Assembly: GCA_001800285.1 (NCBI GenBank)
Contig: MGVC01000075.1
Location: 19,058 to 83,057, forward strand
Reading direction: 5' to 3'
Length of the DNA: 64,000 nt
Source of the DNA: Elusimicrobia bacterium RIFOXYA2_FULL_39_19
GTDB lineage: Bacteria > Elusimicrobiota > Endomicrobiia > CG1-02-37-114 > XYA2-FULL-39-19
Shown here: piece by piece, positions 30,357 to 50,317 of the stretch
Layout of the letters: the number at the start of each line of letters is the position of its first letter
How positions within the stretch are numbered: the stretch's first letter is position 1
The notes under the pieces: model-generated
The model's input: the letters and a program-made list of their open reading frames with translations, nothing else
Told to the model about the DNA's origin: nothing
Database searches by the model: none
Position numbers and translations under genes: made by a program

Positions 30357-33300
30357 ATGGGAAATAAATTCAAAATAATATTTGTGTTTTTAGGACTGCA
30401 AATATTTCTGCTCACACCAGTGATATACAGTGCACCGGATGCGGTTACAAACCTAAGTGTAACAGCCGGGTTTAGCAGGGTTGCGCTTAGCTGGTCCGCG
30501 CCCTACGATACAGCCTCTACAGCGGCACCTGTTATATACGAAGTGAGAGTATCGTCATACCGCGTGCTTGTAAGTGCAGCCGATTGGAACGGTAATTCCA
30601 GCAGTTCCCAGCATCCTTACAGAATTGTACTGCCCACAACAACCAATGCCGGCTTTCTTGAAAGTATTGTTGTTACAGGCCTGACAAATGGAATGACTTA
30701 CTTTTTTGCAGTGCGCTCATCAACATATAATTTTTCAGATTATGCCGACTGGTCCGGAATGGACAGCACTTCGCCGGAACCTCAGGCTCAGCCGCAGAAT
30801 ACCGCGCCAACCGGTGCCGGAGGCTACCAGCCTTCAAACGGTGCTCACGTCAACGTTTCAACGCCTACTATTTACTGGAACAATGCTTCTCCCGGTAATC
30901 CGGATTCTACACAGGGTGATTACATAGCATCTTATACGGTATACATAAATACAGCAACTGATTTTTCCGGTGTATCCTGGGCCAGTATAATAAAGACCGG
31001 CATAATAACAAATTCCTGGAGCGTATCACCACCGTTAGCTGATAATACCACCTATTACTGGAAGGTTTTTGCCTATGATTCAGAGGGTGAAGAAGGCCAG
31101 CTTTTTGCACCCTACCAGAGGTTAATTGTAAATTCAACAAACTCTGCACCAACATCGGTAACCCTTATTTCACCTACCAATGGCGCCACCATAACATCTT
31201 TTCCCAGAAATTTTGACTGGAACGATGCAGTTGAGTCAGACCCGGGGGACAATATTTATTATGTGGTGCATCTTTCAAGTTCCCTGGATTTTACAACAGA
31301 AATTACCAGCAATACCGGAAAGGTTTCTACGGCAAATCTAACTTTAACGGTCATGGAAAACACCACTTATTACTGGTATGTAGTTACTCACGATACAAAT
31401 TCCCTGGGGCTTAATGTGACATATTCTCAAAGCACAACCTCAAGGACTGTCTGCATAAATTTATCGCCAAACGAAGACCCGTTGCCTTTTAACCTCACCT
31501 ATCCTATTAATGGTGAAGTTGTGTGTTTTTCCACTCCTACAATAAACTGGGATGATACCACAGACCCGGACCCGGGAGACTTTATAACATTTTATGAAAT
31601 ACATTTGTCTTCATACAGTGCAGAGCTTACCAGTGGTAGTGAATATTTTTCTTCAAACGTTTATGTTTCACAATATGTATCCGAACCGCTGGTGGAAAAT
31701 GCTTCGTATAATTGGCTTGTTGTAGCTCACTCCTTTACAGGAGGACTATTGTTTACAGATTCAACATCTTTTGTAGTAGATGCGGTAAATGTGCTGCCAA
31801 GCTCAGTTACATTTTTGAGCCCGAATAATATGATTTCCACAACGTCTGTGCGCCCTGTTTTTATTTGGACAGCTTCATCAGACCCTGACCCAGGCAGCAG
31901 TTTTACTTATAAAATATATTTATCAACAAATAATTTTGCCACGGCATTCACAAGCGCGGCTCTGGTAACACCGGGTTTTATTCCGGTATCGGATTTAACT
32001 GAAAATGCCCAGTATGCCTGGAAAGTTGATGTAATTGACAACCAGGGAGGGCTGGTTACTACAGCAACAAATTATTTTTGGGTAGATTCAAGCATGGAAA
32101 ATCCAAACACTTTTAATTTGAATTCTCCGGACGGAACTAACCAGAATATACTTAAAACTTATTTTGACTGGGATAATGCAACAGATCCCGATGTAGGCGA
32201 TTATGTAGCAAGTTATGAAATATGGTATTCCACAACATCCTTATTTACGGTTTATACTTCTTCGGCCGGTTTAACGGTATCAAGCTTTTCGACACAGAGT
32301 ACTTTGATAGGCAATGCAACTTATTACTGGAAAGTTAGAGCAGTCTCAGCTAACAGCGGATTTTTATGGTCAACTACGAAATATTTTTATACAACAACAA
32401 GTTTTCCGCTGGCTTATCCCGAGGATGCGTCAGTAAGGAATTTCCTTAAAACATATTTTGTCTGGAACCAGCTGGCAGACCCGGATCCGACAGACAGCAA
32501 TACCGTTACGTATGACTTGTTCTATACCACTGTTGCATCCTTTAATATTTACACCTCAACTACAGGTCTTAGCGTTTCCACTTATACCATAGAATCACCT
32601 CTAATAAACAGCGCTACATATTACTGGAAAGTTAGAGCTATAGTCGCTACCGGTGCTTTATGGTCAAGCACAACAGGATATTTTTATACTGTCAGCAGTT
32701 TTACTCTTTCTGCACCTACTGATGGATCAAATCAGAACTATTTGAAGGTTAATTTTGACTGGAATGACCTTCCTGACCCGGCCCCTGCTGACGGTATTTA
32801 CGTGACCTATGAAATACATTACTCTACTGACATTCTTTTCAGGGTTTATGATTCTGCTTCAGGGTTAACTTTTTCAAGCTATACTACAAGTTCTGCACTT
32901 ATAAATTCTGCAACTTATTATTGGAAAGTAATTGCCCAGTCAACAAGCGGTTATACAAACTCAGTAAATACCTTTAGGTTTATAACCGGTACGGGCTTTG
33001 ACCTTTTAACTCCAGCTAATGAATCAACAGCAATAAATTTAAGGCCGTCTTTTGACTGGTCAGACATGCCTGATCCGGATACAACAGATAATGTTTCAGT
33101 AAGCTATGAATTCCAATATTCGATTTTTCCTGATTTTTCAGTTTTAAATTCTTCAGCAGGTTTAACTTCGTCAAGTTTTACTTTAACAACAGCACTGTTA
33201 AATGATACTACCTATTTCTGGAGAGTAAGAGCAGTCTCTTCTTCCGGCAGCAGTTATTGCAACGAATCCTATTTCAAATTGTATGTTTTAAACCAGTATC

Positions 33301-34916
33301 CCGCGGCTTTTAGTTTATCTTCGCCGGCAGACTTTTCAGTGCTTACTTCAACAGCTCTCAGCTTCAGATGGCAGGGTACTTATGACCCGGAATCAGAAAT
33401 AATAAGTTACTACTACAGATATTCTTTAAGCACGGTTTATACCACAACCGGCAGTTTTACAGAACCGGTATTTAACATGGATCCTGCCTTATTAACAGAA
33501 AATGCCAAATATTTATGGTATGTGCAGGCAAAAGATCTGTGGCAGAACACAACCGTATCAAACAGTTCTTTTACGTTTTATGTGAATTTTCAAAGCGAAG
33601 CGCCGTCTGCTTTCAGTCTTATGGCGCCAATGGACCGGGCTTTTGTAAGCGTGGGAAATTTTGACTGGCAAAATGCCAGTGATCCGGACCCGTTAGATAC
33701 GGTGAGATATGAAATAAATTATTCAACAATGAATGATTTTTCATTTTATTATTCGTCTGCTGGTTTATCGTCATCAAATTATTCTTTAAGTACAAGCTTG
33801 ATAGGCCAATGTACTTATTATTGGAGGGTAAAGGCTTATGGAACACAGGATCCTTCAAGCCTGTATACACTATCAAGCGTATATACATTTTATACTCCTA
33901 CAACCCAGCCGGCAGCACCCGCTGAATTAAGAGGAGTAGTTTCAGATAGCGGCAGCAAGTGTACCGTTTCCTGGGAAGCTGTGTTTTATAATTCAGATGG
34001 CTCTGTTTGCAGTAATTTGCAGGAATATCGTCTGTATAAATCCAGAACCTTAAACGGCCTTAAAGAAAATCCTGAACTGGTTGCTACTTTGGATACGAGC
34101 GTAATTACCTACGCAGATACGACCTTAAGTAGTCTTGAATATTTTTACATGGTGCGTTCAGTAAATTCATTTAAAATTGAAAGTGCTTTCTCTGCGATCC
34201 TTTATATTAATCCTTCGGAAGCTGTGAGCTACAGGGTTTTCAGCGATTTAAGCGATGAGGTAAGTCTTAATATTCCGGGTGAAATATATGACGAATTGAA
34301 TTCAAATAATGACATCCATGTAGCTATTTCCAGGATAAATTCTTACGAGAACAGCACTGTTTTAAGAGCTTATGATATGAAAATAGATAAGAGCGGTGTC
34401 AGCCGTAAAACATTCAGCCAGCCTCTTTATATTCAATTCAGTTACAGGAATATTGACGTGGCTGACCCGTCAATGCTTGGAGTGGCTTATCATGACGGAG
34501 TTTCCTGGCAGTACCTGGCTTGTACCGTAGATACCTTGAATAAAGTTGTAAAAATAAAAACTTATCATTTAACAGAATTCAGATTCCAGCTGGTGGAAAG
34601 GTCAACTGAATTTGAATTGCTTAACTGGCCGTTAAAAGCAAAAGTTTTTACTCCCAATAATGATAATGTAAATGATGAATTGAAAATATATTATTCTAAT
34701 CCGCAAAATAAAAGTATTACGGGTAAAATTATGAATATAAACGGAATGTATATTGCAGATATGGCTAATAATACTAATGAAATGGCTGTCAGTTGGGACT
34801 GCAAAACACAAAATGGCTACACCGTAACTTCAGGTATATATATTTACCAGCTTACAATTTCGGGTCCGAATTCCGAAAACAAAATTATTAACGGTACTAT
34901 TGTTGTCGCAAAGTAA
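30357..34916 (+). CDS. Secreted FN3-array surface protein (1,519 aa) with C-terminal sorting-type domain (cargo 2)
   Basis: Signal peptide MGNKFKIIFVFLGLQIFLLTPVIYSA, then an N-terminal FN3 (VALSWSAPYD...MTYFFAVRS). About 10 tandem ~90-100-aa FN3-like units follow, with the signature 'P.F.W....DPDPGD...Y.I..S....F........L....Y.....L..N(A/T)TYYWKV.A'. There is a late FN3 (CTVSWEAV...YRLYKS...YFYMVRSVN). The CTD at ~34610-34913 is KVFTPNNDNVNDELKIYYSNP...SGIYIYQLTISGPNSENKIINGTIVVAK, where 'FTPN.D..ND' resembles the type-B gliding/T9SS CTD signature. Confidence 0.8.
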   Translation: MGNKFKIIFVFLGLQIFLLTPVIYSAPDAVTNLSVTAGFSRVALSWSAPYDTASTAAPVIYEVRVSSYRVLVSAADWNGNSSSSQHPYRIVLPTTTNAGFLESIVVTGLTNGMTYFFAVRSSTYNFSDYADWSGMDSTSPEPQAQPQNTAPTGAGGYQPSNGAHVNVSTPTIYWNNASPGNPDSTQGDYIASYTVYINTATDFSGVSWASIIKTGIITNSWSVSPPLADNTTYYWKVFAYDSEGEEGQLFAPYQRLIVNSTNSAPTSVTLISPTNGATITSFPRNFDWNDAVESDPGDNIYYVVHLSSSLDFTTEITSNTGKVSTANLTLTVMENTTYYWYVVTHDTNSLGLNVTYSQSTTSRTVCINLSPNEDPLPFNLTYPINGEVVCFSTPTINWDDTTDPDPGDFITFYEIHLSSYSAELTSGSEYFSSNVYVSQYVSEPLVENASYNWLVVAHSFTGGLLFTDSTSFVVDAVNVLPSSVTFLSPNNMISTTSVRPVFIWTASSDPDPGSSFTYKIYLSTNNFATAFTSAALVTPGFIPVSDLTENAQYAWKVDVIDNQGGLVTTATNYFWVDSSMENPNTFNLNSPDGTNQNILKTYFDWDNATDPDVGDYVASYEIWYSTTSLFTVYTSSAGLTVSSFSTQSTLIGNATYYWKVRAVSANSGFLWSTTKYFYTTTSFPLAYPEDASVRNFLKTYFVWNQLADPDPTDSNTVTYDLFYTTVASFNIYTSTTGLSVSTYTIESPLINSATYYWKVRAIVATGALWSSTTGYFYTVSSFTLSAPTDGSNQNYLKVNFDWNDLPDPAPADGIYVTYEIHYSTDILFRVYDSASGLTFSSYTTSSALINSATYYWKVIAQSTSGYTNSVNTFRFITGTGFDLLTPANESTAINLRPSFDWSDMPDPDTTDNVSVSYEFQYSIFPDFSVLNSSAGLTSSSFTLTTALLNDTTYFWRVRAVSSSGSSYCNESYFKLYVLNQYPAAFSLSSPADFSVLTSTALSFRWQGTYDPESEIISYYYRYSLSTVYTTTGSFTEPVFNMDPALLTENAKYLWYVQAKDLWQNTTVSNSSFTFYVNFQSEAPSAFSLMAPMDRAFVSVGNFDWQNASDPDPLDTVRYEINYSTMNDFSFYYSSAGLSSSNYSLSTSLIGQCTYYWRVKAYGTQDPSSLYTLSSVYTFYTPTTQPAAPAELRGVVSDSGSKCTVSWEAVFYNSDGSVCSNLQEYRLYKSRTLNGLKENPELVATLDTSVITYADTTLSSLEYFYMVRSVNSFKIESAFSAILYINPSEAVSYRVFSDLSDEVSLNIPGEIYDELNSNNDIHVAISRINSYENSTVLRAYDMKIDKSGVSRKTFSQPLYIQFSYRNIDVADPSMLGVAYHDGVSWQYLACTVDTLNKVVKIKTYHLTEFRFQLVERSTEFELLNWPLKAKVFTPNNDNVNDELKIYYSNPQNKSITGKIMNINGMYIADMANNTNEMAVSWDCKTQNGYTVTSGIYIYQLTISGPNSENKIINGTIVVAK

Positions 34917-34922: not shown

Positions 34923-37109
34923 ATGGATAAGCTTAACAAAATAAAATTTATGAATAAAATAAAAATTGCCGGATTTATTGCAGGTATTGCCTGTTTTTGC
35001 CTGAATCCTGTTATTAATGCTTCTTTTGAAGAAACGGGCACTGGCGCACAGCCGCTTGCTATGGCAGGCTGTTTTACGGCATATACCGGATCTGTGTATT
35101 CTCTTTACTATAATCCTGCAGGATTAGGTTTTATATACAATACTCAGCTGGTTGGTGAGTTTTCCAGCCTTTATCAGGGGCTTGATGATAAAAGTAGTTT
35201 AGGAAAAGGATGTTTTGCTTTTGCGGTGCCGATAACAAAAGATTATTTCGGGTTTGGATTTGCATATGACAGCCTGTCTTTGGCAGAAACCTATTCAGAA
35301 GATATAATAAGGTTTTCAGCTGGTTATAGAATTCTGGATCCTTTAAGTTTTGGTTTTGAACTGAAGCTTATGAGCCAGAAATATATGATAGTGGGAAACC
35401 AGTATTATGCCCAGGATACCCTTTTTACAAAAGGTGTTGGTGCAGGAACTATGGATATGGATTTCGGGTTAGCCTATATGCCGTTCGATTATCTTTCCGT
35501 AGGATTGAAGTTAGGAAACATTTTTCAATCCAGTACCTACCTGGATGAAGAAAACAAATCAAAACTTCCCGGATTGGTACGGTTCGGTGTGAAATACAGT
35601 GAATATAGCTCTAACATGTGCCTGGATTTAGTTAACGAAACTTACAAATTCGGCAGCAGCCTTGAAGGAACTGAATCAAAATCAAACATGTCCGCAAATA
35701 TAGGAATTGAAAAGTTTTTCCTGGAAAGAGCAGCCAACAATTTTTTCCTTGCATTCAGGGGAGGACTTGTATGGGGAATCAATAATCAGTCAAAAAGTGT
35801 TACTGCCGGTTTTGGCGTGAATATTGCGCCTATAGCCATAGATTATGCCTGGGTTTTTCCGATAAGCGGTATCGAAGATATTTCGGGGAGCCATCACTTC
35901 TCTTTTGTCTGTAAATTTGGTAAAATAAAGAGTAATTTAAAGAGGAAAACATCAAGGTTTGAACAAGATGATTTTGAAGAGCCTTTAGCTGCCCGGGAAA
36001 ATTCTTTGCAGAGAGGAAATATGCCTGAGTCTCCGTCAACTTCTTCAAAATATACTTTATCCGGGAAAACATATGTAAAAGGGGCTTACCCTGAAGGTAT
36101 GTTTAGTTCACAGGTACTCTACGGCCCGGTAGCGATGATTCTTGATTCTGAAAGTGGCACCTATAATGTTCCTGCTCCGGCAAGTACCGGCACCGTTCAG
36201 AATTTCTATGTTTATTCTTACCAGTACACCCCTCCTATTACAGCTCAAACCAATCCTTTTTTAAGGGAATATTTTGAAACTGCCAAAGATTCTTCTGTGC
36301 CGGTTTCACTGCCGGTTCAGGAGTATAGTGAAATTGTTTTTTCAACCCAGACAAAAAATGAAAAGGGCGCAGTTTTAGTATCCTCTGTTTCGCCTGCAGA
36401 ATATAACAACGAAAAATCCACAACTCAGGTAAAAGAAATACTCCTTCCGGGATTGCAGGAAAAAATACCGGGAGTTAATTTAGAAAATTCTTCAGAAAAC
36501 CTCCCGGATTCAAAGAAAAAACTGCAGGTTGAAACAGGAGGAGTTCTGCCTTCTGTCCCATTAGTTGTTCCTGTAACTGTGCCTGTTGTTCTTCCTTCGG
36601 GAGTAACATCTGTAGAAGTTCCGGCAACAACACAGAATTTACAGCAGAAAATAAAAGACAGCAGGGAAATAAAGGGTTCTTTGCAAAATCAAAGTGATAA
36701 TGTAAATCAGAAAATAAATGAATCTCAGGTTCAGCTGCTAAGTGTACCTGAAGACGAGATACCGGAAGAAATACGAAGAGAAGTTGAGCAATCTCAGCAG
36801 AATGGAGAATCTATGACAGATACTGCACCTGCTGTTATTGTTCCCGCTGCACCGGCCGGCGGGATTCCTGCGGCGTTATCAACAGAAAACGGGATAAAAC
36901 AAAAAGAAGAAACAGGGCAGGCAACCAAACCAAAAACATCACCAGGAAATTATATGAGATATCATAAAGTAAAGCCGGGAGATACATTGAAATCCCTTGC
37001 ACAGGATTACTACGGCAATAGCGATAGATGGATAGATATATACAAAATAAATGAAGACAAAATTGATAAGGGTTCCCTTAGACCGGGACAGACTATGATA
37101 ATTCCATGA
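34923..37109 (+). CDS. FadL/PorV-like outer-membrane barrel + long low-complexity linker + C-terminal LysM (paired with cargo 2)
   Basis: It starts 6 nt after the cargo stop. Signal peptide KIAGFIAGIACFCLNPVINA. Barrel signature GTGAQPLAMAGCFTAYTGSVYSLYYNPAGLGF, then ~330 aa of beta-strand-type sequence. A ~330-aa P/S/T/Q/V-rich linker follows. The terminal LysM is YHKVKPGDTLKSLAQDYYGNSDRWIDIYKINEDKIDKGSLRPGQTMIIP (~36958-37106). Confidence 0.75.
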   Translation: MDKLNKIKFMNKIKIAGFIAGIACFCLNPVINASFEETGTGAQPLAMAGCFTAYTGSVYSLYYNPAGLGFIYNTQLVGEFSSLYQGLDDKSSLGKGCFAFAVPITKDYFGFGFAYDSLSLAETYSEDIIRFSAGYRILDPLSFGFELKLMSQKYMIVGNQYYAQDTLFTKGVGAGTMDMDFGLAYMPFDYLSVGLKLGNIFQSSTYLDEENKSKLPGLVRFGVKYSEYSSNMCLDLVNETYKFGSSLEGTESKSNMSANIGIEKFFLERAANNFFLAFRGGLVWGINNQSKSVTAGFGVNIAPIAIDYAWVFPISGIEDISGSHHFSFVCKFGKIKSNLKRKTSRFEQDDFEEPLAARENSLQRGNMPESPSTSSKYTLSGKTYVKGAYPEGMFSSQVLYGPVAMILDSESGTYNVPAPASTGTVQNFYVYSYQYTPPITAQTNPFLREYFETAKDSSVPVSLPVQEYSEIVFSTQTKNEKGAVLVSSVSPAEYNNEKSTTQVKEILLPGLQEKIPGVNLENSSENLPDSKKKLQVETGGVLPSVPLVVPVTVPVVLPSGVTSVEVPATTQNLQQKIKDSREIKGSLQNQSDNVNQKINESQVQLLSVPEDEIPEEIRREVEQSQQNGESMTDTAPAVIVPAAPAGGIPAALSTENGIKQKEETGQATKPKTSPGNYMRYHKVKPGDTLKSLAQDYYGNSDRWIDIYKINEDKIDKGSLRPGQTMIIP

Positions 37110-37140: not shown

Positions 37141-38388
37141 ATGAGTGAATTTAATGAACTGGAAGAAGAACTTCAAAAAATTGAAAACGAATTCAGTACC
37201 GATGAAACGGACGAGATTTTACGCCACATAGTCAGCCCGTCTGCCGCTGATTACTGGAAAAAACGCCTGGATGATGAAAAGGTTCTCTGGACAAAAATGA
37301 CTGAGGACAAGGAAAAAGACAAAAAAATCACTGAAACCAGGTTGTCTAAGGCTAATTCAGAGATTGAAGCTTTAACAAAAAAAATTCATGAACTGGAATC
37401 TGTCCTTCAAAAGGAAGTTGCTCTTTTTCAGGATAAATTGAAATCCCAGGAAAGCGATTTTCATCTTGAACGCGAAAGGTCCTCTTATGGCCAGAAAATA
37501 AAGGAACTGGAAAAAGAAAACAACGTGCTGCACGAAGAATTGAGGCAGTTAAAAGAAAATGAGGCAGTAAAAATTGATGCCATAAAGAAAACTCATGACG
37601 AAGAAGTTCTTGAGCTGGCCGATTCACAAAATTCAATAATTGAGAGCATAGAAGCTATAGCCGGCGATATAAAAGAAATTGAAGGGATTATTCAGAAGCA
37701 GTCTGAAGAAATTGCCGGACAAAAAGATTCCGTGACAAAAACCTTAGGTGAAAAAAACCTTAAAGAAGCAGAGCTGGCAAAGCTGAAAGCAGAGTATGAA
37801 AACAAAGTTTCCGAATTAAACCTGAGAGAAACTGACTTAAAGGAGTATTTCAGGATAACAGTAAAATATTTTTCAGGAAAAATCAAACCCTCCTTGGGTA
37901 CCATTCTGGGCATAGCAAACTATTGCACCAGAAGGCTTAAGGCAAGTTTTATCGGGAAAAATGCAGTTTTAAAAAAACAGATAAATCTGCTGGAAGGTGT
38001 AGTTGCTGATGTTTCCGTGCAGCTTGATAAGCTTGTTTCTCTTTCCGGGCAGGAAGAGATGAGCCTGCAGGAAATATCCCCTGAAAAATTCATAGCAAGA
38101 ATAAGCGAAGATGTTGATGTGTCTATGTTCCCTGCGGGTTTGAAAATGAAAGCTGACCAGCTTAGAATAATAAGCGCCCTGAAAAAACACTGTGAAAATG
38201 CGTCTTATTTTGTGAAATACAACCAGGCAAACAAGGAAATTGAGTTTAAAATACTTACGCCTGATAAACTGGAAAACACCGAAGATTTGGTAAGGCTAAA
38301 ATACCTTATTTATTCTCATGGATGGAAAGCGGTGTTCGGTAAGACAGATAATAAAACATTCATTATGTTGTACATAAAGGTATATTAA
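37141..38388 (+). CDS. Coiled-coil protein with degenerate histidine-kinase-like C-terminal half (module 1)
   Basis: RBS GGGAGG upstream. N-terminal ~240 aa are coiled coil. The C-terminal ~170 aa are colinear with the HK-like paralog at 46248-47363 (dimerisation-helix-like ILGIANYCTRRLK...QINLLEGVVADVSVQLDKL, then an alpha/beta part). It lacks a His at the H-box position and lacks recognisable G1/G2 ATP-lid motifs. Confidence 0.6.
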   Translation: MSEFNELEEELQKIENEFSTDETDEILRHIVSPSAADYWKKRLDDEKVLWTKMTEDKEKDKKITETRLSKANSEIEALTKKIHELESVLQKEVALFQDKLKSQESDFHLERERSSYGQKIKELEKENNVLHEELRQLKENEAVKIDAIKKTHDEEVLELADSQNSIIESIEAIAGDIKEIEGIIQKQSEEIAGQKDSVTKTLGEKNLKEAELAKLKAEYENKVSELNLRETDLKEYFRITVKYFSGKIKPSLGTILGIANYCTRRLKASFIGKNAVLKKQINLLEGVVADVSVQLDKLVSLSGQEEMSLQEISPEKFIARISEDVDVSMFPAGLKMKADQLRIISALKKHCENASYFVKYNQANKEIEFKILTPDKLENTEDLVRLKYLIYSHGWKAVFGKTDNKTFIMLYIKVY

Positions 38389-44773: not shown

Positions 44774-44774
44774 T

Positions 44775-46247
44775 ATGAACAAAATTAAAGCCATAAAAAT
44801 TATTGCAGGATTAGAAAAACAAAAAGCCGTAAAAAAGCGGATAACCGCTGTTTCTATGATTTTTGTTATATACTGTCTGTTTACAGGAAACGTCACGGCT
44901 GATTTTAATTATACAGGCATTGGTGCCCGGCCTGTTGCTTTGGGTAATTGTTATACGGCATTTTCTGATGATGCTTTTGGGGTTTATTATAACCCCGGCG
45001 GTTTATGTTTTGCGCGCTACCCGGAAATAAGTACGCAGTTCGGCCAACTTTGGATGAATTTGACTGATAACTCAAATCTTACTGACGGTTATTTAGGCGG
45101 AGTTTATCCGGTGGAAAAAGCAGCTTATGGTTTTGCGGTCCAGAAATTTTCGCTTGACGGATATTATTCTGAAAACACAATGTCATTTGCCTATAGCAGA
45201 AAAATCAGCGATTCTCTGGGACTGGGTGTTACTTTCAGGCAGATGCAGCAGGCCTATACTATGGATGAATATACTTTGACGGATGAAGTATTCAATAACG
45301 GCAATACAGTATCAAAGGCTGCCTTTGGTATTGACCCCGGTTTACTGTGGGCCTTTTATCCGGACTATTTTTTCGGAATGTCCATAATAAATCTAAACCA
45401 GCCGGATTTTGGCCTGGTGGAAAAAGAAATGCTTCCCGTAACATTTAATTTTGGGTTAAGTTACAGGAGCAACTATCCTTTAGGAGACATAAGCCTGGGT
45501 TTAGGTCTCAGTCAGACGGATAAGGATTATAAAATCACTTCAGGCATAGAGAAATTATTAATGAAGGGGAAATTAGCCGCCAGGCTTGGCTACGGGTTCG
45601 GTTCCAGCCAGTATTCGGGAATTTCTGTGGGTATAGGTTTAAAAATTGTACAGGCAACGTTTGATTATTCATTAAATTTCCCTGTAAGCGGAATGAAGCA
45701 GACCGGAGGAACACAGCGCATAAGTTTGACTTACCGGTTTGCCAGGCTCTCTGAAGAAGAAATGGAAGGCCAGCAGAATTTCAAAGCTGAAAAAGCCCAG
45801 CTGATAAAGAAGTATGAAGGCCAGGTAAAAGAGCTTGAAAATAAAATATCGGAACTTGATGCAAAATTTGCAGAGTCCCAAAGAATGCCGGCAGCACAGC
45901 AGACCCCTCGGGATATAGAAAATAGCAGGAAGATTGAAAAACAGATTCTTGAAATGCAGGGAAAATTGAAAAATCAGAAAATACAGAAAGAGCAGGAGCT
46001 GCAGGCTCCGGTGCCTCAAAAAGTTATTTACGATGAGCCGCTGCAGGAAGTAATACCCAAAGTGCAGCCACAGACCCCTAAAGAACCTGCCGCAAAGACT
46101 CACACGGTAAAAGAAGGAGAATCCCTGCTTTCCATAGCACAGAAATATTATAATGATTCATCAAAATGGAAAATTATTTACGAAGCAAATAAGAGTAAAA
46201 TTGAAAGAGGCCAGGTTTTACCGGGCCAGGTACTTAAAATCCCATAA
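44775..46247 (+). CDS. FadL/PorV-like outer-membrane barrel + coiled/linker segment + C-terminal LysM (paired with cargo 3)
   Basis: ATG at 44775 lies 1 nt after the cargo-3 stop; the track's TTG at 44763 overlaps it. Signal-like ITAVSMIFVIYCLFTGNVTA. Barrel signature GIGARPVALGNCYTAFSDDAFGVYYNPGGLCF, then ~290 aa of beta sequence. A K/E/Q-rich linker follows. Terminal LysM: HTVKEGESLLSIAQKYYNDSSKWKIIYEANKSKIERGQVLPGQVLKIP. Confidence 0.75.
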   Translation: MNKIKAIKIIAGLEKQKAVKKRITAVSMIFVIYCLFTGNVTADFNYTGIGARPVALGNCYTAFSDDAFGVYYNPGGLCFARYPEISTQFGQLWMNLTDNSNLTDGYLGGVYPVEKAAYGFAVQKFSLDGYYSENTMSFAYSRKISDSLGLGVTFRQMQQAYTMDEYTLTDEVFNNGNTVSKAAFGIDPGLLWAFYPDYFFGMSIINLNQPDFGLVEKEMLPVTFNFGLSYRSNYPLGDISLGLGLSQTDKDYKITSGIEKLLMKGKLAARLGYGFGSSQYSGISVGIGLKIVQATFDYSLNFPVSGMKQTGGTQRISLTYRFARLSEEEMEGQQNFKAEKAQLIKKYEGQVKELENKISELDAKFAESQRMPAAQQTPRDIENSRKIEKQILEMQGKLKNQKIQKEQELQAPVPQKVIYDEPLQEVIPKVQPQTPKEPAAKTHTVKEGESLLSIAQKYYNDSSKWKIIYEANKSKIERGQVLPGQVLKIP

Positions 46248-47363
46248 TTGGAGTATATTGTGGACAAAAACATAGAACAACTAAAAGACAAAATAGCAAG
46301 AATAAAGGAAAAATCCAGGGAGATTTCTAAAAAAATATCTTCCAATATAGACACACAGCCTAAAACATATTCCGAAACTGTTATCCCGGCAGGGCTGGAT
46401 ACTACGAGAAAACAGGATTCCCCGGCAGTACCGGCTTCATTTAAAATTGAAAACAAAATCAAAGAAGAAGAATTACGCCATAAAATAGCCGAACTGGAAC
46501 AGGAAAAAAGTTATCTTGCAACAAAACTTACCAATATTCAAAACGAAAAAATACTTTCAGAAGCCAGATCAGGTGAACTGTCAAAGAAAAACGAGGAATT
46601 GAATAAAAAGCTGATAGAGCTTGATAAGGGCAAAAAAACCGTTGAACAAGAAGTAGAAACCATAGCGGAAACACTCAAAAAGTTTGACCAGACTTCCTGG
46701 AACAAATATTCGGTTGATTTAATATGCCAGTTTATTGGCGAAGCCAGCAGATATTTCAGAAATTCACAGGGTATGATAAATGAAGCCATTAAAATGTGTA
46801 CCGACGATAAAGGTATGTCAGATTCACTTAAAAAGAAAATAGCTGTTGTGCAGAACGAAATACTAAGGGTATTGAATGTTTTTTCCGATGCAAAAACAAA
46901 ATATACTTTTAAAGGCATAAATATTCAAAGAGTTAATCTGAAAAACTTTATTGAAAACGTAGTTTCTAAAAATACAGTTAAAATACAAAATAAAGTAAAA
47001 ATAGAAACCCGTATTCACGATTCGGACTGTTATGTAAACATTGACCCGGACATCTTTGAAGATGCTTTTAGTGAAATGATTACAAATTCTTCGGAATCCA
47101 TCTTAAAAGACGGTGTCATAAGAATAGAATCACATGCCATAGGAAGGAAAACAGTAATAGAAATATCCGATACCGGCTTAGGCGTGCCTCCTCATCTTAT
47201 GGACAAAATTTACTGCCCGTTTTTTTCAACAAAACAGGATCATACAGGACTGGGCCTTACCAGGGTATACTGGGTAGTTCAGCTTCATAAAGCAGAGATA
47301 GACCTTGAAAGCCAGGTAAATGCAGGTACCAAAATTACCATCATTTTACCTGAGGAGGAATAA
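46248..47363 (+). CDS. Soluble coiled-coil + histidine-kinase-like ATPase (HATPase_c intact, no H-box histidine) (module 2)
   Basis: N-terminal ~150 aa are coiled coil with no TM segment. ATP-binding boxes are readable: N box FSEMITNSSESI, G1 ISDTGLGVP, F box CPFFSTK, G2 GLGLTRV. At the expected H-box the sequence is FIGEASRYFRNSQGMI, where a canonical kinase reads (S/A)HE(L/I)RNP. That puts Arg where the phospho-accepting His should be. TTG start at 46248; GTG at 46260 is an alternative. Confidence 0.7.
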   Translation: MEYIVDKNIEQLKDKIARIKEKSREISKKISSNIDTQPKTYSETVIPAGLDTTRKQDSPAVPASFKIENKIKEEELRHKIAELEQEKSYLATKLTNIQNEKILSEARSGELSKKNEELNKKLIELDKGKKTVEQEVETIAETLKKFDQTSWNKYSVDLICQFIGEASRYFRNSQGMINEAIKMCTDDKGMSDSLKKKIAVVQNEILRVLNVFSDAKTKYTFKGINIQRVNLKNFIENVVSKNTVKIQNKVKIETRIHDSDCYVNIDPDIFEDAFSEMITNSSESILKDGVIRIESHAIGRKTVIEISDTGLGVPPHLMDKIYCPFFSTKQDHTGLGLTRVYWVVQLHKAEIDLESQVNAGTKITIILPEEE

Positions 47364-47365
47364 AA

Positions 47366-48460
47366 ATGCCGAGGCTTGAAACAACTCATGAAGCAATGAG
47401 GCATTATTACAGGGGCCGGGTATTCGAATCTACCGGCGAAATAGATATTGCTGTAAGTGAATATAAAAAAGCTATAGAGTTAGGAGCTGATTATGCAGAT
47501 ATTCATAATAGTATGGGCAGGGCATATGCAAAAAAAGGCCAGTTTGTCGAAGCATCAAAAGAATTTCAGTGTGCCTTGCAGATGAATCCTCATTATCTTG
47601 AAGCCCAGAGAAACCTTATAGAGCTTGAAACCAGGTTGACAGTCATTCAGAAAGAAAAAGAAAATACGACTATTAGCAGAAAGTTATTTTATAAAACTGA
47701 AAGCAGGCCCGGCAAACGCAGAAAATTTCCTCTTGTCCCTGTATTATCTATTGTGGCAGGAATAGTTCTGTTTACGCTTACTTCGGTTCTGGTAACAAAC
47801 ATGATTTTTCCGGCTAAATTAAAAAAATATACTGCACCTTCAGAAAATGTAACAGGTATTTCTTTTGACGACAAGGATATTTGGCTTTGCGATTGGTTCA
47901 AGCAGGAAATATACTGTGCCAAGATAATTGATGATGAATTAATAGTAAAAAAGACCTATTCCATGAAAACAAGTTTCCCCATCGGTGTTGCCATAGGTAA
48001 AAACTATCTCTGGACCTGCGATGGCTGGAACAAAAAAATAAGCAAACACATGTACGACAATGATTTATCCATCCTGGCAAGTTACCCTTCCCCGGGCAAC
48101 AATCCCTCATCTTTGTGTTTTGACGGCGAAAATCTATGGTCTACCGATGCTGATTCGAAAAAAATCTATAAACACAGCATGGATGAGATGAATTTATCAC
48201 CAGAGACTGTATACAAAAGCCCCTGCTCCAGGCCGATGGGTTTTTCTTATGACGGTAAAAACTACTGGTCAGTTGACGGAGATAATAATATAATCTACAA
48301 ACACAGAAAAAACATGAACATAATTGATCAATACCAGATGAATTTTCCTAATAAAAAGTTAAGCGCAGTGCTGGTAGACAAGAAAAATGTCTGGATTGCT
48401 TTTGAAGGTGATTCCGGCCTGCTTTGTTATCCGAGAAGCAAAATACTGAAACAGGAATAA
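47366..48460 (+). CDS. Bitopic membrane protein: cytoplasmic TPR - TM - periplasmic beta-propeller (module 2)
   Basis: RBS GAGGAGGA upstream. TPR: YYRGRVFESTGEIDIAVSEYKKAIELGADYADIHNSMGRAYAKKGQFVEASKEFQCALQMNPHYLEA. TM: FPLVPVLSIVAGIVLFTLTSVLVTNMIF. Blade-like repeats match those of 38395-39591: IWLCDWFKQEIYCAK, LWTCDGWNKKISKHM, LWSTDADSKKIYKHS, YWSVDGDNNIIYKHR, VWIAFEGDSGLLCYP. Confidence 0.7.
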   Translation: MPRLETTHEAMRHYYRGRVFESTGEIDIAVSEYKKAIELGADYADIHNSMGRAYAKKGQFVEASKEFQCALQMNPHYLEAQRNLIELETRLTVIQKEKENTTISRKLFYKTESRPGKRRKFPLVPVLSIVAGIVLFTLTSVLVTNMIFPAKLKKYTAPSENVTGISFDDKDIWLCDWFKQEIYCAKIIDDELIVKKTYSMKTSFPIGVAIGKNYLWTCDGWNKKISKHMYDNDLSILASYPSPGNNPSSLCFDGENLWSTDADSKKIYKHSMDEMNLSPETVYKSPCSRPMGFSYDGKNYWSVDGDNNIIYKHRKNMNIIDQYQMNFPNKKLSAVLVDKKNVWIAFEGDSGLLCYPRSKILKQE

Positions 48461-48463
48461 TTT

Positions 48464-50317
48464 ATGGAAAGTTTAAATAATCTGATCATATTATCAGGGA
48501 GTTTTGCTGCGCTTGTGCTGTTATTTGCCCAGTTCTTTTTTAAACCGGCAAAAAAAACAACAGCAAGGCCTGTAAATGCGGTTAAAACACAGTCTCCGAT
48601 GATATTTAAAACATTAATATCAAAGTTCAGGCAGATTGATACCATGGTAGATTCATTACGAACGCAAAAAAATGTTGAATTGCTTAAGTCTGAAGTTGAA
48701 TCGTTGAAAAACTATGTAGCTGACATAGAAGCAAGCATTATAGAAAAAATCAAAATGAAAGATAATGAAAAACTGCAGCTTAAGGCACAGGTTACGCTGA
48801 TAAACACAAAAATAGAATCTGCTTTTGTGCATCTTACAGAAGACGAGAGCAAGCTGGCATATAACAAACAGTTGCTGGAATCGAAAATACATACTTTTGA
48901 AGAAAAAGAAAGCTCAGAAATAAAAACAATAAACAACGATATAGAAAATTTAAAATCAATTCTATCCGATTACAGCGCCAGATTTAAAACAATGAATACG
49001 GAGGTTTTAAGCAATGAGGTAAAGGCGTTGTCTAGTGAAATGGCGATTTTAGAAAACAATTACGAAATAAGCAAAGAAAAATTCAGCCTTAATTTAAGCA
49101 CCAAAGATACAGATATAATTAAATTGAATGAAGAGTTTATTAAAATAAAAGAAGAAAAAGCTGCAGTGTTGGATATAATTCATAAAAGGAAAAGATTGCT
49201 TGAAAACGAAATTCAGCAACTTAAGCATAAATATGATCAGGAAATACAGAGAAGCCTGAAGGAAAAGGAAGATAAAAAAACAGAGATAGAAAATTTGAAC
49301 CAGGCTATAACAACTACTGAAAAAGAAAATAAAGCTATTGAAAACCTTATTACCTTAAGAACAGGCCTTGAAAAACAAATTGCTGACCTGACAAAAAGAA
49401 TTAAGGAACAGGAAAGGTCACATTTAAATAGCATAGAAGAGAAAAACGAAATATTAAAAACATTGTCTGTAAGTGCCCAGGAAAAAGAAAATGAAATAAG
49501 TAAAAGATATGAAGAAGAACGGCAGAAGACACTTCTGGAACAGATTGAACTGGAAAATGAAATTAAACGATTAAATGAAAACTGCGATAAGCTTAAGAAT
49601 ACAAGCATTGCGGCAGAATCGGCGCTAAAAGAAGAAGTTGAAAAACTGCAGAAAGCATATCGCCAGAACGAAGGAAAATACCAAAACGCAAAGAAGGGCC
49701 GCCTGAAGGTAGAGCAGGGTATACACGACAAGTTAAAAATTCAGCTTGACGAATTGCAAAAAGACATAGAAACGAAAACAGCAGATTACAAAAATGAGCT
49801 CAAGACCAGAGAAGAGCAAGTGTATATATTAAGAACACGCTTAGGCATAAGGGAAGATAAACTGCTTTCTGACATACAACGGCGCAGGGATCTGCAAGCC
49901 AAAATTATTGAAGACCTTAAAGTAACAGGTGATAAACTTAGAAAAACAACTCAGGGCACTACTGAGAAATATAGCAGAAATGTGGATGCCGTATCGAAAA
50001 AAGTTGAATCTATTAAATCTGACGTTGCTTCTGTAGACGCATTTATCAAGCAGGAAGAACTGTTGTCAAATAAGCTTGAGGCCCAGAGAAAGAAAATTGA
50101 AAACGAAATAGCAATAATAGAAGATAAATTGACCCGTGACCTGCATGATATGAAAGAGTTTATAACAATGAAAAATAGACAGATAAAAATGCTTTCAGAA
50201 GAAATAATTGAAAAAGAAAATCTTTTAAGGGCAGAACATACAGCATTAGGAAAGATTGTGCATTCTACCGTTGAACTTAAAACCCAAAAAAGCAAAATAG
50301 GCCTGGAAAAAGAGTAA
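48464..50317 (+). CDS. N-terminally membrane-anchored coiled-coil protein (617 aa)
   Basis: One N-terminal hydrophobic helix (LIILSGSFAALVLLFAQFFF), then ~560 aa of K/E/L/I/N-rich coiled-coil-type sequence. It starts 3 nt after the preceding stop. Confidence 0.75.
   Translation: MESLNNLIILSGSFAALVLLFAQFFFKPAKKTTARPVNAVKTQSPMIFKTLISKFRQIDTMVDSLRTQKNVELLKSEVESLKNYVADIEASIIEKIKMKDNEKLQLKAQVTLINTKIESAFVHLTEDESKLAYNKQLLESKIHTFEEKESSEIKTINNDIENLKSILSDYSARFKTMNTEVLSNEVKALSSEMAILENNYEISKEKFSLNLSTKDTDIIKLNEEFIKIKEEKAAVLDIIHKRKRLLENEIQQLKHKYDQEIQRSLKEKEDKKTEIENLNQAITTTEKENKAIENLITLRTGLEKQIADLTKRIKEQERSHLNSIEEKNEILKTLSVSAQEKENEISKRYEEERQKTLLEQIELENEIKRLNENCDKLKNTSIAAESALKEEVEKLQKAYRQNEGKYQNAKKGRLKVEQGIHDKLKIQLDELQKDIETKTADYKNELKTREEQVYILRTRLGIREDKLLSDIQRRRDLQAKIIEDLKVTGDKLRKTTQGTTEKYSRNVDAVSKKVESIKSDVASVDAFIKQEELLSNKLEAQRKKIENEIAIIEDKLTRDLHDMKEFITMKNRQIKMLSEEIIEKENLLRAEHTALGKIVHSTVELKTQKSKIGLEKE

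What the first reader, a model, noticed from the sequence alone, without database searches (positions are those of the whole stretch)
30357..50317. Diverged tandem duplication of a four-gene module (cargo / LysM-barrel / His-less kinase-like / TM-propeller)
Module 1 (30357-39591) and module 2 (39680-48460) have the same gene order, tiny or overlapping intergenic distances, and pairwise homologous products. The FN3 arrays share the DPDPGD...TYYWKV unit. The barrels both begin MNKIK... and share the NP(A/G)GL signature and a terminal LysM. The coiled-coil kinase-like proteins and the propellers (IYKH-type blades) also pair up.

Sequence identity is low, so the duplication is old and both copies are maintained. 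The copies have sub-functionalised:
- Only module 2 keeps ATP-binding boxes.
- The cytoplasmic head of the propeller protein is receiver-like in module 1 but TPR in module 2.

The giant ORF plus barrel at 1-20034 looks like a third, stripped-down instance.
Basis: seen in the sequence. Interest (0 to 1): 0.8.

Follow-up and report, generated by a model that had tools for sequence, protein, structure and literature searches.

The report
Duplicated adhesin–anchor–pseudokinase envelope module
An uncultured Elusimicrobiota bacterium carries two old, diverged copies of an undescribed four-gene set (giant surface protein, cell-wall-tethered outer-membrane barrel, kinase-like protein, membrane-spanning propeller protein) that derives from a two-component signalling pair, and both copies have lost the residues needed for phosphotransfer.

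Summary
Window 30357-39591 and 39680-48460 are two co-directional, tightly packed four-gene modules:
- an FN3-array protein with a T9SS-like C-terminal domain;
- a PorV/PorP-like barrel ending in LysM;
- a cytoplasmic coiled-coil kinase-like protein;
- a head-TM-five-bladed-propeller protein.

Three pairs are directly homologous (27-30% identity, E 1e-32 to 1e-77). The kinase-like pair is linked only through canonical kinases of orthologous modules (hhalign 99%).

About 22 such modules turned up in Elusimicrobiota and Firestonebacteria MAGs. The commonest form is a real two-component pair: a kinase with His, plus a REC-TM-periplasmic propeller.

In the window, phosphotransfer looks impossible in both copies:
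- Module 2: His→Arg, ATP boxes intact, TPR head instead of a receiver.
- Module 1: His→Gly, ATP lid deleted, receiver fold kept but Asp→Asn.

Rough trees place the modules in two ancient paralog lineages. They sit in tandem in only three related genomes.

The proposed "third instance" is a different PorV-barrel/CTD pair.

Best reading: a surface-adhesin anchoring complex coupled to a two-component-derived trans-envelope link. That function is inferred, not shown. I found no curated family or paper describing it.

The parts
30357..34916 (+). Module 1 cargo (1519 aa): signal peptide, 12 FN3-like repeats, and a C-terminal T9SS-type sorting-like domain
   Evidence: CHU_C 30.0 bits (GA 27) at residues 1429-1509. 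TIGR04131 27.5 bits, below the cutoff of 35; 12 repeats. N-terminal hydrophobic segment at 5-23; homologous to cargo 2 (E 1e-77).
34923..37109 (+). Module 1 outer-membrane barrel (PorV/PorQ/PorP superfamily, about residues 35-335), a roughly 345-aa low-complexity linker, and a C-terminal LysM
   Evidence: PorV_fam E 9.7e-12, 45 bits, below the cutoff of 90. LysM 29.6 bits (GA 20.9) at 681-728; 29% identity to barrel 2. YYNPAGL motif. The real start may be the internal MNKIK methionine.
37141..38388 (+). Module 1 cytoplasmic pseudo-kinase (415 aa): conserved N-terminal motif (PSAADYWKKRLDDEKVLW), coiled coil, DHp with His→Gly (FSGKIKPSLG), and a CA-like domain with the ATP lid deleted
   Evidence: hhalign 99.1%, E 4e-19 to canonical module kinases; alignments showing H→G and the missing N/G1/G2 boxes; the AF2 model (pLDDT 80, built on an MSA of kinases) matches DHp-CA of ZraS, HK853, DivL and ChpT; no TM segment; no Pfam hit.
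38395..39591 (+). Module 1 pseudo-receiver, TM helix, and periplasmic five-bladed beta-propeller (398 aa; gene callers start at 38410)
   Evidence: AF2 pLDDT 90, with a (beta-alpha)5 fold at 3-123, a helix at 128-170 and 20 strands at 180-385; head profile versus REC heads 95.3%, E 2e-8; the phospho-Asp position is Asn (LIFINSKN) and the KPF lysine is lost. TM at 154-172; homologous to the module 2 protein.
39680..44773 (+). Module 2 cargo (1697 aa): signal peptide, 13 FN3-like repeats, and a C-terminal sorting-like domain
   Evidence: fn3 E 2.5e-21; CHU_C 26.6 bits, just under GA 27. Por_Secre_tail 23.4 bits (cutoff 23); 13 repeats.
44763..46247 (+). Module 2 outer-membrane barrel, a charged linker, and a C-terminal LysM (494 aa; the start is probably the MNKIK methionine at 44775)
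   Evidence: PorV_fam E 4e-18, 66 bits (cutoff 90). PorP_SprF 30.0 bits (GA 22.3) and LysM 33.1 bits.
46248..47363 (+). Module 2 cytoplasmic His-less kinase-like ATP-binding protein: coiled coil, DHp with His→Arg (EASRYFRNSQG), and intact N, G1 and G2 boxes
   Evidence: HATPase_c E 3.8e-16. AtoS-type kinase models; box-by-box alignment; 99.8% to canonical module kinases.
47366..48460 (+). Module 2 TPR head, TM helix, and periplasmic beta-propeller (364 aa)
   Evidence: TPR_11, TPR_1 and TPR_2 at residues 17-77. TM at 126-144, preceded by RPGKRRK; propeller homologous to module 1.
48464..50317 (+). Accessory gene after module 2: N-terminal TM anchor plus a 590-aa coiled coil. It is inside the finding's coordinates but is not one of the four paired genes.
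   Evidence: TM at 7-25; an ortholog directly follows module 2 in L007/L008 (7e-62) and L024 (6e-98).
27045..30320 (+). Accessory gene before module 1: a 1091-aa Pro-rich N-terminus plus coiled coil, with no TM
   Evidence: an ortholog lies directly upstream of module 1-type modules in L007 (3e-178), L038 (7e-113) and L017 (2e-14); no TM segment.

Best explanation
Each module most likely encodes an envelope-spanning complex that displays a giant FN3-repeat adhesin on the cell surface.

**Proposed steps (all inferred)**
1. The cargo is exported by Sec.
2. Its C-terminal beta-sandwich domain is held by the cognate PorV/PorP-like outer-membrane barrel.
3. The barrel is fastened to peptidoglycan by its periplasmic linker and LysM tail.
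4. The other two genes are a two-component pair turned into a trans-envelope link. A soluble coiled-coil kinase (or kinase-like protein) docks on the cytoplasmic head of a single-pass inner-membrane protein.
5. The periplasmic five-bladed propeller of that protein reaches the barrel-linker/LysM or the cargo.

**Ancestral form.** This form is still common. The kinase has His and the partner has a canonical receiver domain. Cytoplasmic phosphorylation would then change the periplasmic propeller ('inside-out'), or the propeller would report envelope status inward.

**The two window copies.** Phosphotransfer is no longer possible.
- Module 2 keeps an ATP-binding domain (His→Arg) and has a TPR head in place of the receiver.
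- Module 1 is a pseudo-kinase/pseudo-receiver pair (His→Gly, ATP lid deleted, Asp→Asn).

They would act as nucleotide-dependent (module 2) or purely structural (module 1) scaffolds. Each serves its own cargo and barrel.

**Shown:** the domain anatomy, the homologies, the conserved synteny, the correlated loss of His and Asp, and the fusion proteins.

**Inferred:** localisation, who binds whom, and the direction and purpose of the coupling.
For: **Synteny**
- The order cargo-barrel-kinase-propeller occurs in about 22 modules from Elusimicrobia, Endomicrobia and Firestonebacteria MAGs, in unrelated neighbourhoods.
- Every module barrel ends in LysM, 22 of 22.

**Cargo and barrel**
- The cargo C-termini hit T9SS sorting-domain models at about threshold.
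- The barrels hit PorV_fam and PorP_SprF.
[quoted passage not shown] PorP also binds the TPR/beta-propeller/peptidoglycan-binding protein PorE (PMC9143113).

**Kinase and partner track each other**
- His in the H-box occurs only in the canonical-type kinases (L009, L011, L013, L014, L039). Partner heads: a canonical REC in L009, L011 and L013; a REC with Glu at the Asp position in L014; a coiled-coil head in L039.
- H→R with intact ATP boxes occurs in all 14 TPR-type modules and in L016.
- H→G with the lid deleted occurs in the 3 pseudo-REC modules.

**Fusions**
- At least 7 representative proteins of about 690 aa, plus L017, join the kinase-like N-terminal half to pseudo-REC-TM-propeller in one chain. 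This argues that the two proteins interact physically.

**Topology**
- The kinases have no TM segment, so the receiver must be cytoplasmic. With a single TM, the propeller must be periplasmic.

**Family size**
- 56 of the 86 single-architecture proteins among the best 150 representatives have a canonical DD-D-T/S-K receiver.
Against: - No experiment or interaction prediction supports any contact between the four proteins.
- The CTD matches are borderline. TIGR04131 scores 27.5 against a cutoff of 35. CHU_C scores 26.6-30 against 27.
- PorV_fam is below its cutoff for both module barrels.
- The T9SS translocon is reported only from Bacteroidota/FCB (PMC7463736, PMC11205867), and I could not check for it in this genome. 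How a 150-180 kDa cargo would cross the outer membrane is therefore open.
- Four loci break the four-gene rule: L026, L032, L019 and L039.
- The propeller's nearest structural matches are enzymes (glutaminyl cyclase, virginiamycin B lyase), so an enzymatic role is not excluded.
- The cc1 structure model used an alignment of kinases and is biased towards that fold.
Confidence: 0.45

Rival explanations
1. The four genes form a self-contained secretion or assembly machine for the FN3 protein, independent of any T9SS. The barrel is the outer-membrane exit or usher. The inner-membrane propeller protein is a periplasmic chaperone or adaptor. The GHKL-type ATP-binding protein supplies energy or gating from the cytoplasm.
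For: - The four genes travel together in many genomes and in unrelated neighbourhoods.
- The phylum lies outside the reported range of the T9SS (PMC7463736).
- In the 14 TPR-type modules and L016, the ATP-binding boxes are strictly kept although the phospho-accepting His is gone. This suggests ATP binding matters for something other than His phosphorylation.
Against: - The barrel domain is only about 300 residues and resembles the 14-stranded FadL/PorV class. That class binds and shuttles CTDs and does not conduct folded 150-kDa proteins.
- Module 1 and the fusion type lack any ATP-binding domain yet are conserved.
- No known mechanism lets a cytoplasmic GHKL domain drive outer-membrane transport through a single TM helix.
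Confidence: 0.15
2. The kinase and propeller proteins are an ordinary signalling pair that senses an envelope or peptidoglycan cue through the periplasmic propeller (outside-in). They sit next to an adhesin/anchor pair and regulate its expression or another cytoplasmic target. There is no physical complex with the barrel or cargo.
For: - Canonical His and Asp residues are present in most family members.
- A periplasmic beta-propeller sensor domain is known in bacterial kinases, for example the PknD extracellular domain among the structural matches.
- PorXY signalling is triggered by a CTD protein in P. gingivalis (PMC12152298).
Against: - The receiver-bearing protein has no DNA-binding or enzymatic cytoplasmic output. 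Its only other domain is outside the membrane.
- In a normal outside-in system the membrane sensor is the kinase, not the response regulator.
- Many modules, including both in the window, have lost His and/or Asp yet keep the gene pair and its position. That fits a structural partnership better than a phosphorelay to a distant target.
Confidence: 0.2
3. The propeller is a periplasmic enzyme, either a glutaminyl-cyclase-like or a lyase-like enzyme. It would chemically modify the cargo or the cell wall, and its activity would be switched by the cytoplasmic head.
For: - The top Foldseek matches are five-bladed plant/bacterial-type glutaminyl cyclases (TM 0.69-0.76 on the target) and virginiamycin B lyase at 22% identity.
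- There are weak NCBIfam Vgb(A) and Pfam SGL hits.
- In Bacteroidota many secreted proteins, T9SS cargo among them, carry N-terminal pyroglutamate made by a glutaminyl cyclase (own knowledge, not checked here).
Against: - Identity to the cyclases is 12-14%, and there is no PF05096 hit for either window protein.
- The predicted mature N-termini of both cargos do not start with Gln (SA/PDAV and FA/DTAV, read).
- The columns conserved across the family are the repeated blade motif (W..D.W..KIYKH), not an obvious active-site set.
Confidence: 0.07
4. The resemblance between the two modules is compositional or coincidental and the gene order is unique to this contig.
For: The kinase-like pair shows no direct similarity beyond coiled-coil noise.
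Against: - Three pairs have E-values of 1e-32 to 1e-77 with composition-adjusted BLASTP.
- The fourth pair is linked by 99% profile matches to the same kinases.
- The order recurs in about 22 modules.
Confidence: 0.01

Closest known systems
T9SS type B CTD protein anchored by a PorP/SprF-like barrel, and the PorP-PorE-PG1035 complex of Porphyromonas gingivalis (also SprB-SprF of Flavobacterium johnsoniae); PMC9143113
   Same: - A large surface protein with a C-terminal sorting-type beta-sandwich is encoded next to a small FadL-like outer-membrane barrel of the PorP/PorV superfamily.
- The complex also brings in a TPR domain, a beta-propeller and a peptidoglycan-binding domain. In PorE these are all in one protein.
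   Different: - The phylum is Elusimicrobiota/Firestonebacteria, not Bacteroidota.
- The peptidoglycan-binding domain is LysM fused to the barrel itself, not OmpA_C on a lipoprotein.
[quoted passage not shown]
- Model scores for the CTDs and barrels are at or below the family cutoffs.
- Presence of a T9SS translocon is unknown.
PorX/PorY two-component system of the T9SS, with the CTD protein PorA as periplasmic ligand of PorY (PMC12152298, PMC7712824)
   Same: A histidine kinase/response regulator pair is functionally tied to CTD-protein secretion, with signalling between a periplasmic CTD and the cytoplasm.
   Different: - In PorXY the kinase is the membrane sensor and the regulator is cytoplasmic, with an enzymatic or sigma-factor-linked output.
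- Here the kinase is soluble and the regulator spans the membrane with a periplasmic propeller.
- The window copies lack His and Asp altogether.
LapD-LapG-LapA inside-out control of a giant adhesin in Pseudomonas fluorescens (PMC3032553)
   Same: The concept is the same. A cytoplasmic signal is read by degenerate signalling domains of an inner-membrane protein. That protein's periplasmic domain controls whether a giant repeat adhesin stays on the outer membrane.
   Different: - There is no sequence or domain relationship: no HAMP, GGDEF or EAL, and no LapG-type protease.
- The signal would be phosphorylation or ATP rather than c-di-GMP.
- This is an analogy only.
Pseudo-histidine-kinases DivL and ChpT of Caulobacter
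   Same: They share a DHp-CA fold with a substituted phospho-acceptor (DivL) or a CA domain that no longer binds ATP (ChpT). Both act through protein-protein contacts with receiver domains and both appear among the structural matches of the module 1 protein.
   Different: They belong to different lineages and different partners. The window proteins pair with a membrane-spanning pseudo-receiver or TPR protein, and the loss of His co-occurs with loss or replacement of the partner's receiver.

Membership tests
T9SS type B CTD cargo + PorP/SprF-like anchor pair | The cargo C-terminus matches a T9SS sorting-domain model (PF13585/TIGR04131 type B, or TIGR04183 type A) at the curated cutoff | tested here: inconclusive
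   - Cargo 1: PF13585 30.0 bits against GA 27, but TIGR04131 27.5 against 35.
- Cargo 2: PF13585 26.6 against 27, and TIGR04183 23.4 against 23 on the C-terminal 299 aa.
T9SS type B CTD cargo + PorP/SprF-like anchor pair | The adjacent gene encodes a PorP/SprF-family outer-membrane barrel | tested here: inconclusive
   - Barrel 2: PF11751 30.0 bits against GA 22.3, so this is met.
- Barrel 1: no PF11751 hit.
- Both hit PorV_fam NF033709 below its cutoff, at 66 and 45 bits against 90.
T9SS type B CTD cargo + PorP/SprF-like anchor pair | The genome encodes the T9SS core (SprA/Sov translocon, PorK/L/M/N or GldK/L/M/N) | not testable with these tools
   Only the 64-kb window and about 20-kb loci were available, and no T9SS core query sequences could be fetched. 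No core component is in the window.
T9SS type B CTD cargo + PorP/SprF-like anchor pair | The organism belongs to Bacteroidota or the FCB group, where the T9SS is reported | tested here: not met
   All close relatives are Elusimicrobiota MAGs, with more distant ones in Firestonebacteria (record titles). The reviews PMC7463736 and PMC11205867 restrict the T9SS to Bacteroidota/FCB.
Two-component system (histidine kinase + response regulator) | A phospho-accepting His in the DHp H-box | tested here: not met
   It is Arg in the module 2 protein (EASRYFRNSQG) and Gly in the module 1 protein (FSGKIKPSLG). His is present in the orthologs in L009, L011, L013, L014 and L039.
Two-component system (histidine kinase + response regulator) | An ATP-binding CA domain with N, G1 and G2 boxes | tested here: inconclusive
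   - Module 2: met. HATPase_c E 3.8e-16; the boxes are TNSSES, DTGLGV and GLGL.
- Module 1: not met. All three boxes are absent and the lid is deleted.
Two-component system (histidine kinase + response regulator) | A receiver domain with the acidic pocket, the phospho-Asp and the conserved Lys | tested here: not met
   - Module 1: the receiver fold is present, but Asp is replaced by Asn and the Lys is lost.
- Module 2: there is no receiver; the head is TPR.
- The canonical DD-D-T/S-K signature is present in 56 of 86 family representatives.
PorV/PorQ family (NCBIfam NF033709) | Whole-protein score at or above the curated cutoff of 90 bits | tested here: not met
   The module barrels score 45 and 66 bits. 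Only the upstream barrel 18322-20034 passes, at 129 bits. All three are mutually homologous.
Plant/bacterial-type glutaminyl cyclase (PF05096) | A sequence match to the family model, and cargo with N-terminal Gln | tested here: not met
   Only fold-level similarity was found, at 12-14% identity. There is no PF05096 hit. The predicted mature cargo N-termini are not Gln.
LapD-type inside-out receptor | HAMP plus degenerate GGDEF-EAL cytoplasmic module that binds c-di-GMP, and a periplasmic LapG-binding domain | tested here: not met
   None of these domains is present in either propeller protein. The comparison is an analogy only.

The most novel reading that the evidence does not exclude
Elusimicrobiota and Firestonebacteria may possess a previously unrecognised envelope-spanning machine built on a response regulator whose 'output' is a periplasmic beta-propeller.

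A cytoplasmic kinase would phosphorylate a receiver domain. The signal would cross the inner membrane through one helix (inside-out). It would then act on a LysM-tethered PorV-like barrel that holds a giant FN3 adhesin, and so control display or release of the adhesin without a canonical T9SS.

The system would have decayed repeatedly into phosphorylation-independent pseudo-kinase/pseudo-receiver, TPR and fused scaffolds. The window would show two of these stages side by side.
Probability: 0.3. Interest if true: 0.75.

Novelty: new variant of a known kind. Interest (0 to 1): 0.6.

Why it matters
**A new response-regulator type.** If the reading is right, this defines a response-regulator architecture whose output domain lies outside the cytoplasm (REC-TM-periplasmic propeller). 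At least 56 representative clusters at 50% identity have it. It would be a route for inside-out two-component signalling to the cell envelope. I found neither a curated family nor a paper covering it.

**Wider range for CTD/barrel anchoring.** The logic known from the Bacteroidota T9SS would extend to phyla where that system is not reported. That bears on how T9SS sorting and anchoring parts originated.

**A natural series of signalling decay.** The canonical, His-less ATP-binding, fully degenerate and fused forms all sit in the same conserved gene context. This makes it a clean system for studying how signalling pairs turn into structural scaffolds.

**Annotation.** Eight large hypothetical genes in this window, and their orthologs in many uncultured Elusimicrobiota genomes, gain a testable assignment.

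Tried and rejected
- **Word-indexed search with the module 1 kinase-like protein alone**. It returned only itself, because coiled-coil words swamp the candidate list.
- **The same search with the DHp-CA alignment A5**. It returned mostly generic histidine kinases and no further module 1-type sequences, so it was not informative.
- **Exact look-up of the 398-aa ORF**. It failed because gene callers start the gene five codons later. The look-up with P0001 worked.
- **The search for related loci with the full 26-sequence alignment**. It had no conserved stretch to search with. Three subfamily alignments were used instead.
- **Structure prediction with alignment A5**. I replaced it with A8, made of generic kinases, which biases the model towards a kinase fold.
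- **Direct comparison of the giant ORF's C-terminus with the cargo CTDs**. It was not significant. The link rests only on weak hits to T9SS CTD models.
- **Promoter/terminator scan**. Promoter-like sites were at chance level, and there is no convincing terminator in the 88-nt gap between the modules, so operon structure is unresolved.
- **Literature searches**. I looked for T9SS in Elusimicrobia, for PorV+LysM, for a receiver-TM-propeller protein, for PorV2, and for Elusimicrobia with FN3/LysM/kinase. None describes this module.
- **Ideas rejected:** a purely compositional resemblance, and a conventional transcription-regulating two-component system (there is no DNA-binding output). A glutaminyl-cyclase role for the propeller is kept only as a low-probability rival (0.07).

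Full report
**1. What is in the sequence**

The finding's interval, 30357-50317, holds nine co-directional ORFs. Eight of them form two four-gene sets.
- Module 1: 30357-34916, 34923-37109, 37141-38388, 38395-39591, separated by 6, 31 and 6 nt.
- Module 2: 39680-44773, 44763-46247, 46248-47363, 47366-48460, with an 11-nt overlap and gaps of 0 and 2 nt.
- The ninth ORF (48464-50317) has no counterpart in module 1.

The window is chromosomal. A pyrimidine-biosynthesis operon and other housekeeping genes follow. The identical region is found on a 90-kb metagenome scaffold (ANAN16-1 scaffold_150). The nearest relatives are all Elusimicrobiota MAGs.

**2. The paired products**

*Cargo.*
- The proteins are 1519 and 1697 aa, each with an N-terminal hydrophobic signal segment.
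- They carry 12 and 13 FN3-like repeats of about 100 aa, with the DPDP(G)D and (T)YYWKV motifs.
- Their C-terminal domains hit T9SS sorting-domain models close to threshold: CHU_C 30.0 and 26.6 bits against GA 27; TIGR04131 27.5 against 35; TIGR04183 23.4 against 23.
- The pair is 27% identical over 1401 columns, E 1e-77.

*Barrel.*
- The proteins are 728 and 494 aa. Each has a barrel domain of about 300 aa that hits PorV_fam (E 1e-11 and 4e-18, both below cutoff). Barrel 2 also hits PorP_SprF above its gathering score.
- A low-complexity linker of 100-345 aa and a terminal LysM follow.
- The pair is 29% identical, E 1e-35, with YYNPAGL against YYNPGGL.

*Propeller protein.*
- The proteins are 398 and 364 aa: a cytoplasmic head, one TM helix and a propeller. 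The pair is 30% identical, E 1e-32.
- An AlphaFold2 model of the module 1 protein has mean pLDDT 90. It shows a (beta-alpha)5 head at 3-123, a long helix at 128-170 that includes the TM segment, and 20 strands, which makes five blades.
- The nearest solved folds are five-bladed glutaminyl cyclases, virginiamycin B lyase and NHL domains, at 12-22% identity.

*Kinase-like protein.*
- The proteins are 415 and 371 aa. There is no direct similarity (BLASTP E 0.37; hhalign probability 0.8%).

**3. Resolving the fourth pair**

Orthologous modules in other genomes carry ordinary histidine kinases at this position.
- A two-sequence profile of the module 1 protein matches these kinases at 99.1%, E 4e-19, over its residues 1-375.
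- The module 2 profile matches them at 99.8%, E 3e-28, over residues 161-370.
- The two matches overlap on the DHp and the first half of the CA domain. phmmer gives the same result: the L011 kinase hits both.

The alignments show the following.
- The module 2 protein has Arg in place of the H-box His (EASRYFRNSQG) and intact N, G1 and G2 boxes.
- The module 1 protein has Gly in place of His (FSGKIKPSLG) and lacks all three boxes. The ATP lid is deleted, leaving a short alpha/beta domain.

A model of residues 225-415 folds as a DHp hairpin plus an alpha/beta sandwich (pLDDT 80). It had to be built on an alignment of kinases, so it is biased towards that fold. It matches the DHp-CA of ZraS, HK853, RetS, DivL and ChpT.

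The pair is therefore homologous, but very diverged.

**4. The heads**

- The module 2 head is TPR.
- The module 1 head aligns with the receiver domains that many homologs carry (PF00072 in P0017-P0029; alignment). A profile-profile comparison gives 95.3%, E 2e-8, over the whole domain, and the model has the receiver fold.
- The phospho-Asp position is Asn (LIFINSKN) and the conserved Lys is lost. It is a pseudo-receiver.

**5. Conservation elsewhere**

Look-ups and three scans of GTDB representative genomes were annotated with phmmer. They gave about 22 modules in the order cargo-barrel-kinase-propeller, from Elusimicrobia, Endomicrobia/Endomicrobiales and Firestonebacteria MAGs. In Firestonebacteria the barrel comes first. 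The modules sit in unrelated neighbourhoods; L011, for example, lies between argS and housekeeping genes.
- One Endomicrobiales contig carries two copies 100 kb apart (L011, L017).
- All 22 module barrels end in LysM.
- Four loci deviate (L026, L032, L019, L039).
- The tandem pair, with the same flanking coiled-coil genes (27045-30320 before, 48464-50317 after), recurs in L007/L008 and L038.

An exhaustive profile search of 1.84 billion representatives found 1055 proteins at E ≤ 1e-30.
- Among the best 150, 86 have the single-architecture length.
- 56 of those 86 carry a canonical DD-D-T/S-K receiver.

**6. Correlated decay**

| H-box residue | ATP boxes | Partner head | Loci |
|---|---|---|---|
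| His | intact | canonical receiver | L009, L011, L013 |
| His | intact | receiver with Glu at the Asp position | L014 |
| His | intact (hybrid kinase) | coiled coil | L039 |
| Arg | intact | TPR | all 14 TPR-type modules |
| Arg | intact | receiver with lost acidic pocket | L016 |
| Gly | lid deleted | pseudo-receiver | window, L007, L038 |

In L017, and in at least seven representative proteins of about 690 aa, the kinase-like N-terminal half is fused to pseudo-receiver-TM-propeller in one chain. That half comprises the DYWKRRLDEEK motif, the coiled coil and a His-less DHp. Such fusions argue that the two proteins work in contact.

**7. Age of the duplication**

Simple NJ trees of the propeller and barrel domains place module 1 with the REC-type and fusion-type lineage and module 2 with the TPR-type lineage. 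They are not sisters. These trees are rough and have no support values.

The two modules are therefore ancient paralog lineages that lie in tandem in one clade. This agrees with 'old and both maintained'. It does not agree with a local duplication followed by sub-functionalisation.

**8. The proposed third instance**

- The barrel at 18322-20034 is a clear PorV-family protein (129 bits against a cutoff of 90). It is homologous to barrel 2 (22% identity, E 1e-12) but has a TPR tail, not LysM.
- The giant ORF is open at the window edge (at least 5917 aa). Its last 150 aa weakly match the CTD part of the PorU model (E 3.7e-6). It has none of the FN3 repeats.
- The next gene encodes a membrane-anchored FliG_M/FliG_C protein with a TPR tail.
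- The barrel + FliG-like pair recurs 3 kb upstream of a module in L037.

It is a related but distinct unit.

**9. Mechanism**

*Topology (deduced from the anatomy).*
- The kinases are soluble, so the receiver must be cytoplasmic and the propeller periplasmic.
- LysM must be periplasmic to reach peptidoglycan.
- The barrel is in the outer membrane.
- The cargo is Sec-exported.

*Closest known systems.*
- The closest known logic is the T9SS type B CTD/PorP-like anchoring pair and the PorP-PorE-PG1035 complex. That complex uses the same domain set: barrel, TPR, beta-propeller and peptidoglycan-binding domain (PMC9143113).
- PorXY/PorA is a precedent for coupling between a CTD protein and a two-component system (PMC12152298).
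- LapD is a precedent for inside-out control of a giant adhesin (PMC3032553).

*Proposal.*
I propose a surface-adhesin anchoring complex linked through the propeller protein to a cytoplasmic kinase(-like) partner.
- The link is phospho-controlled in canonical modules.
- It is nucleotide-dependent in module 2.
- It is purely structural in module 1.

All contacts and the biological role are inferred. The rival readings are a self-contained secretion machine, an ordinary outside-in sensor, and an enzymatic propeller. They are listed with the tests that would separate them.

**10. Novelty and score**

- Pfam and NCBIfam have no family for the propeller protein or for the module 1 kinase-like protein.
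- Five literature searches found no description.
- The parts belong to known superfamilies. The combination is not described. It consists of a response regulator with a periplasmic output, a PorV-like barrel fused to LysM, occurrence outside the T9SS phyla, and a graded series of phosphorelay decay.

I rate it a new variant of a known kind, with interest 0.6.

Noticed in passing
window 20039-22009 (+), with 18322-20034; also L037 2-2651: A 656-aa protein with an N-terminal signal/TM segment, a second TM around residue 240, a Gly-rich linker, then FliG_M (E 2e-15) and FliG_C (E 1.5e-26; TIGR00207 124 bits, below the cutoff of 227) and a C-terminal TPR. It directly follows a PorV-family barrel that also ends in TPR. 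The barrel + FliG-like pair recurs 3 kb upstream of a four-gene module in a distant Elusimicrobiota MAG (L037: 4e-38 and 9e-91). No flagellar or stator gene was seen next to it in the window. A membrane-anchored FliG-like protein beside a PorV-like barrel and a giant CTD protein is unusual and unexplained.
   Followed up: partly
window 1-17756 (+): A giant ORF that is open at the window edge (at least 5917 aa). It has no Pfam hit in its last 1666 aa. Its C-terminal roughly 140 aa weakly match the CTD part of the PorU sortase model (E 3.7e-6) and Por_Secre_tail (E 0.006). It lacks the FN3 repeat of the module cargos.
   Followed up: partly
window 22231-27024 and 27045-30320 (+): Two very large cytoplasmic coiled-coil proteins (1597 aa with a C-terminal TPR; 1091 aa with a Pro-rich N-terminus). 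Neither has a TM segment, and they cause a strong purine skew over 22-30 kb. The 1091-aa protein is conserved directly upstream of module 1-type modules in L007, L038 and, more weakly, L017.
   Followed up: partly
window 48464-50317 (+): A 617-aa protein with an N-terminal TM anchor followed by coiled coil. It is conserved directly after the TPR-type module in L007/L008 and L024, so it may be a fifth component of that module type.
   Followed up: partly
window 50424-51524 (+): A diguanylate cyclase (GGDEF, E 7e-43) fused to a glycogen-binding CBM48/AMPK1_CBM domain lies immediately downstream of the cluster. A link to adhesin control through c-di-GMP is conceivable but was not tested.
   Followed up: no
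L017 8879-10951; proteins P0196, P0208, P0209, P0216, P0220, P0227, P0236: Recurrent single-chain fusions of about 690 aa. They join the kinase-like N-terminal half (DYWKRRLDEEK motif, coiled coil, His-less DHp, no CA domain) to pseudo-receiver, TM and propeller.
   Followed up: yes
L014 9986-11206; L016 9950-11173: These are intermediate states. The L014 receiver has Glu at the phospho-Asp position (LLLAEIRLPDMDG) although its kinase keeps His. The L016 receiver keeps Asp but has lost the acidic pocket (IIIAHASA), and its kinase has His→Arg.
   Followed up: no
L032 9335-9808: In one Endomicrobia MAG the kinase position of the module is occupied by a 157-aa ORF that is unrelated to the kinases. 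From its sequence I guess it is DUF559/Vsr-like; this was not checked against any library. The kinase gene has apparently been lost or replaced there.
   Followed up: no
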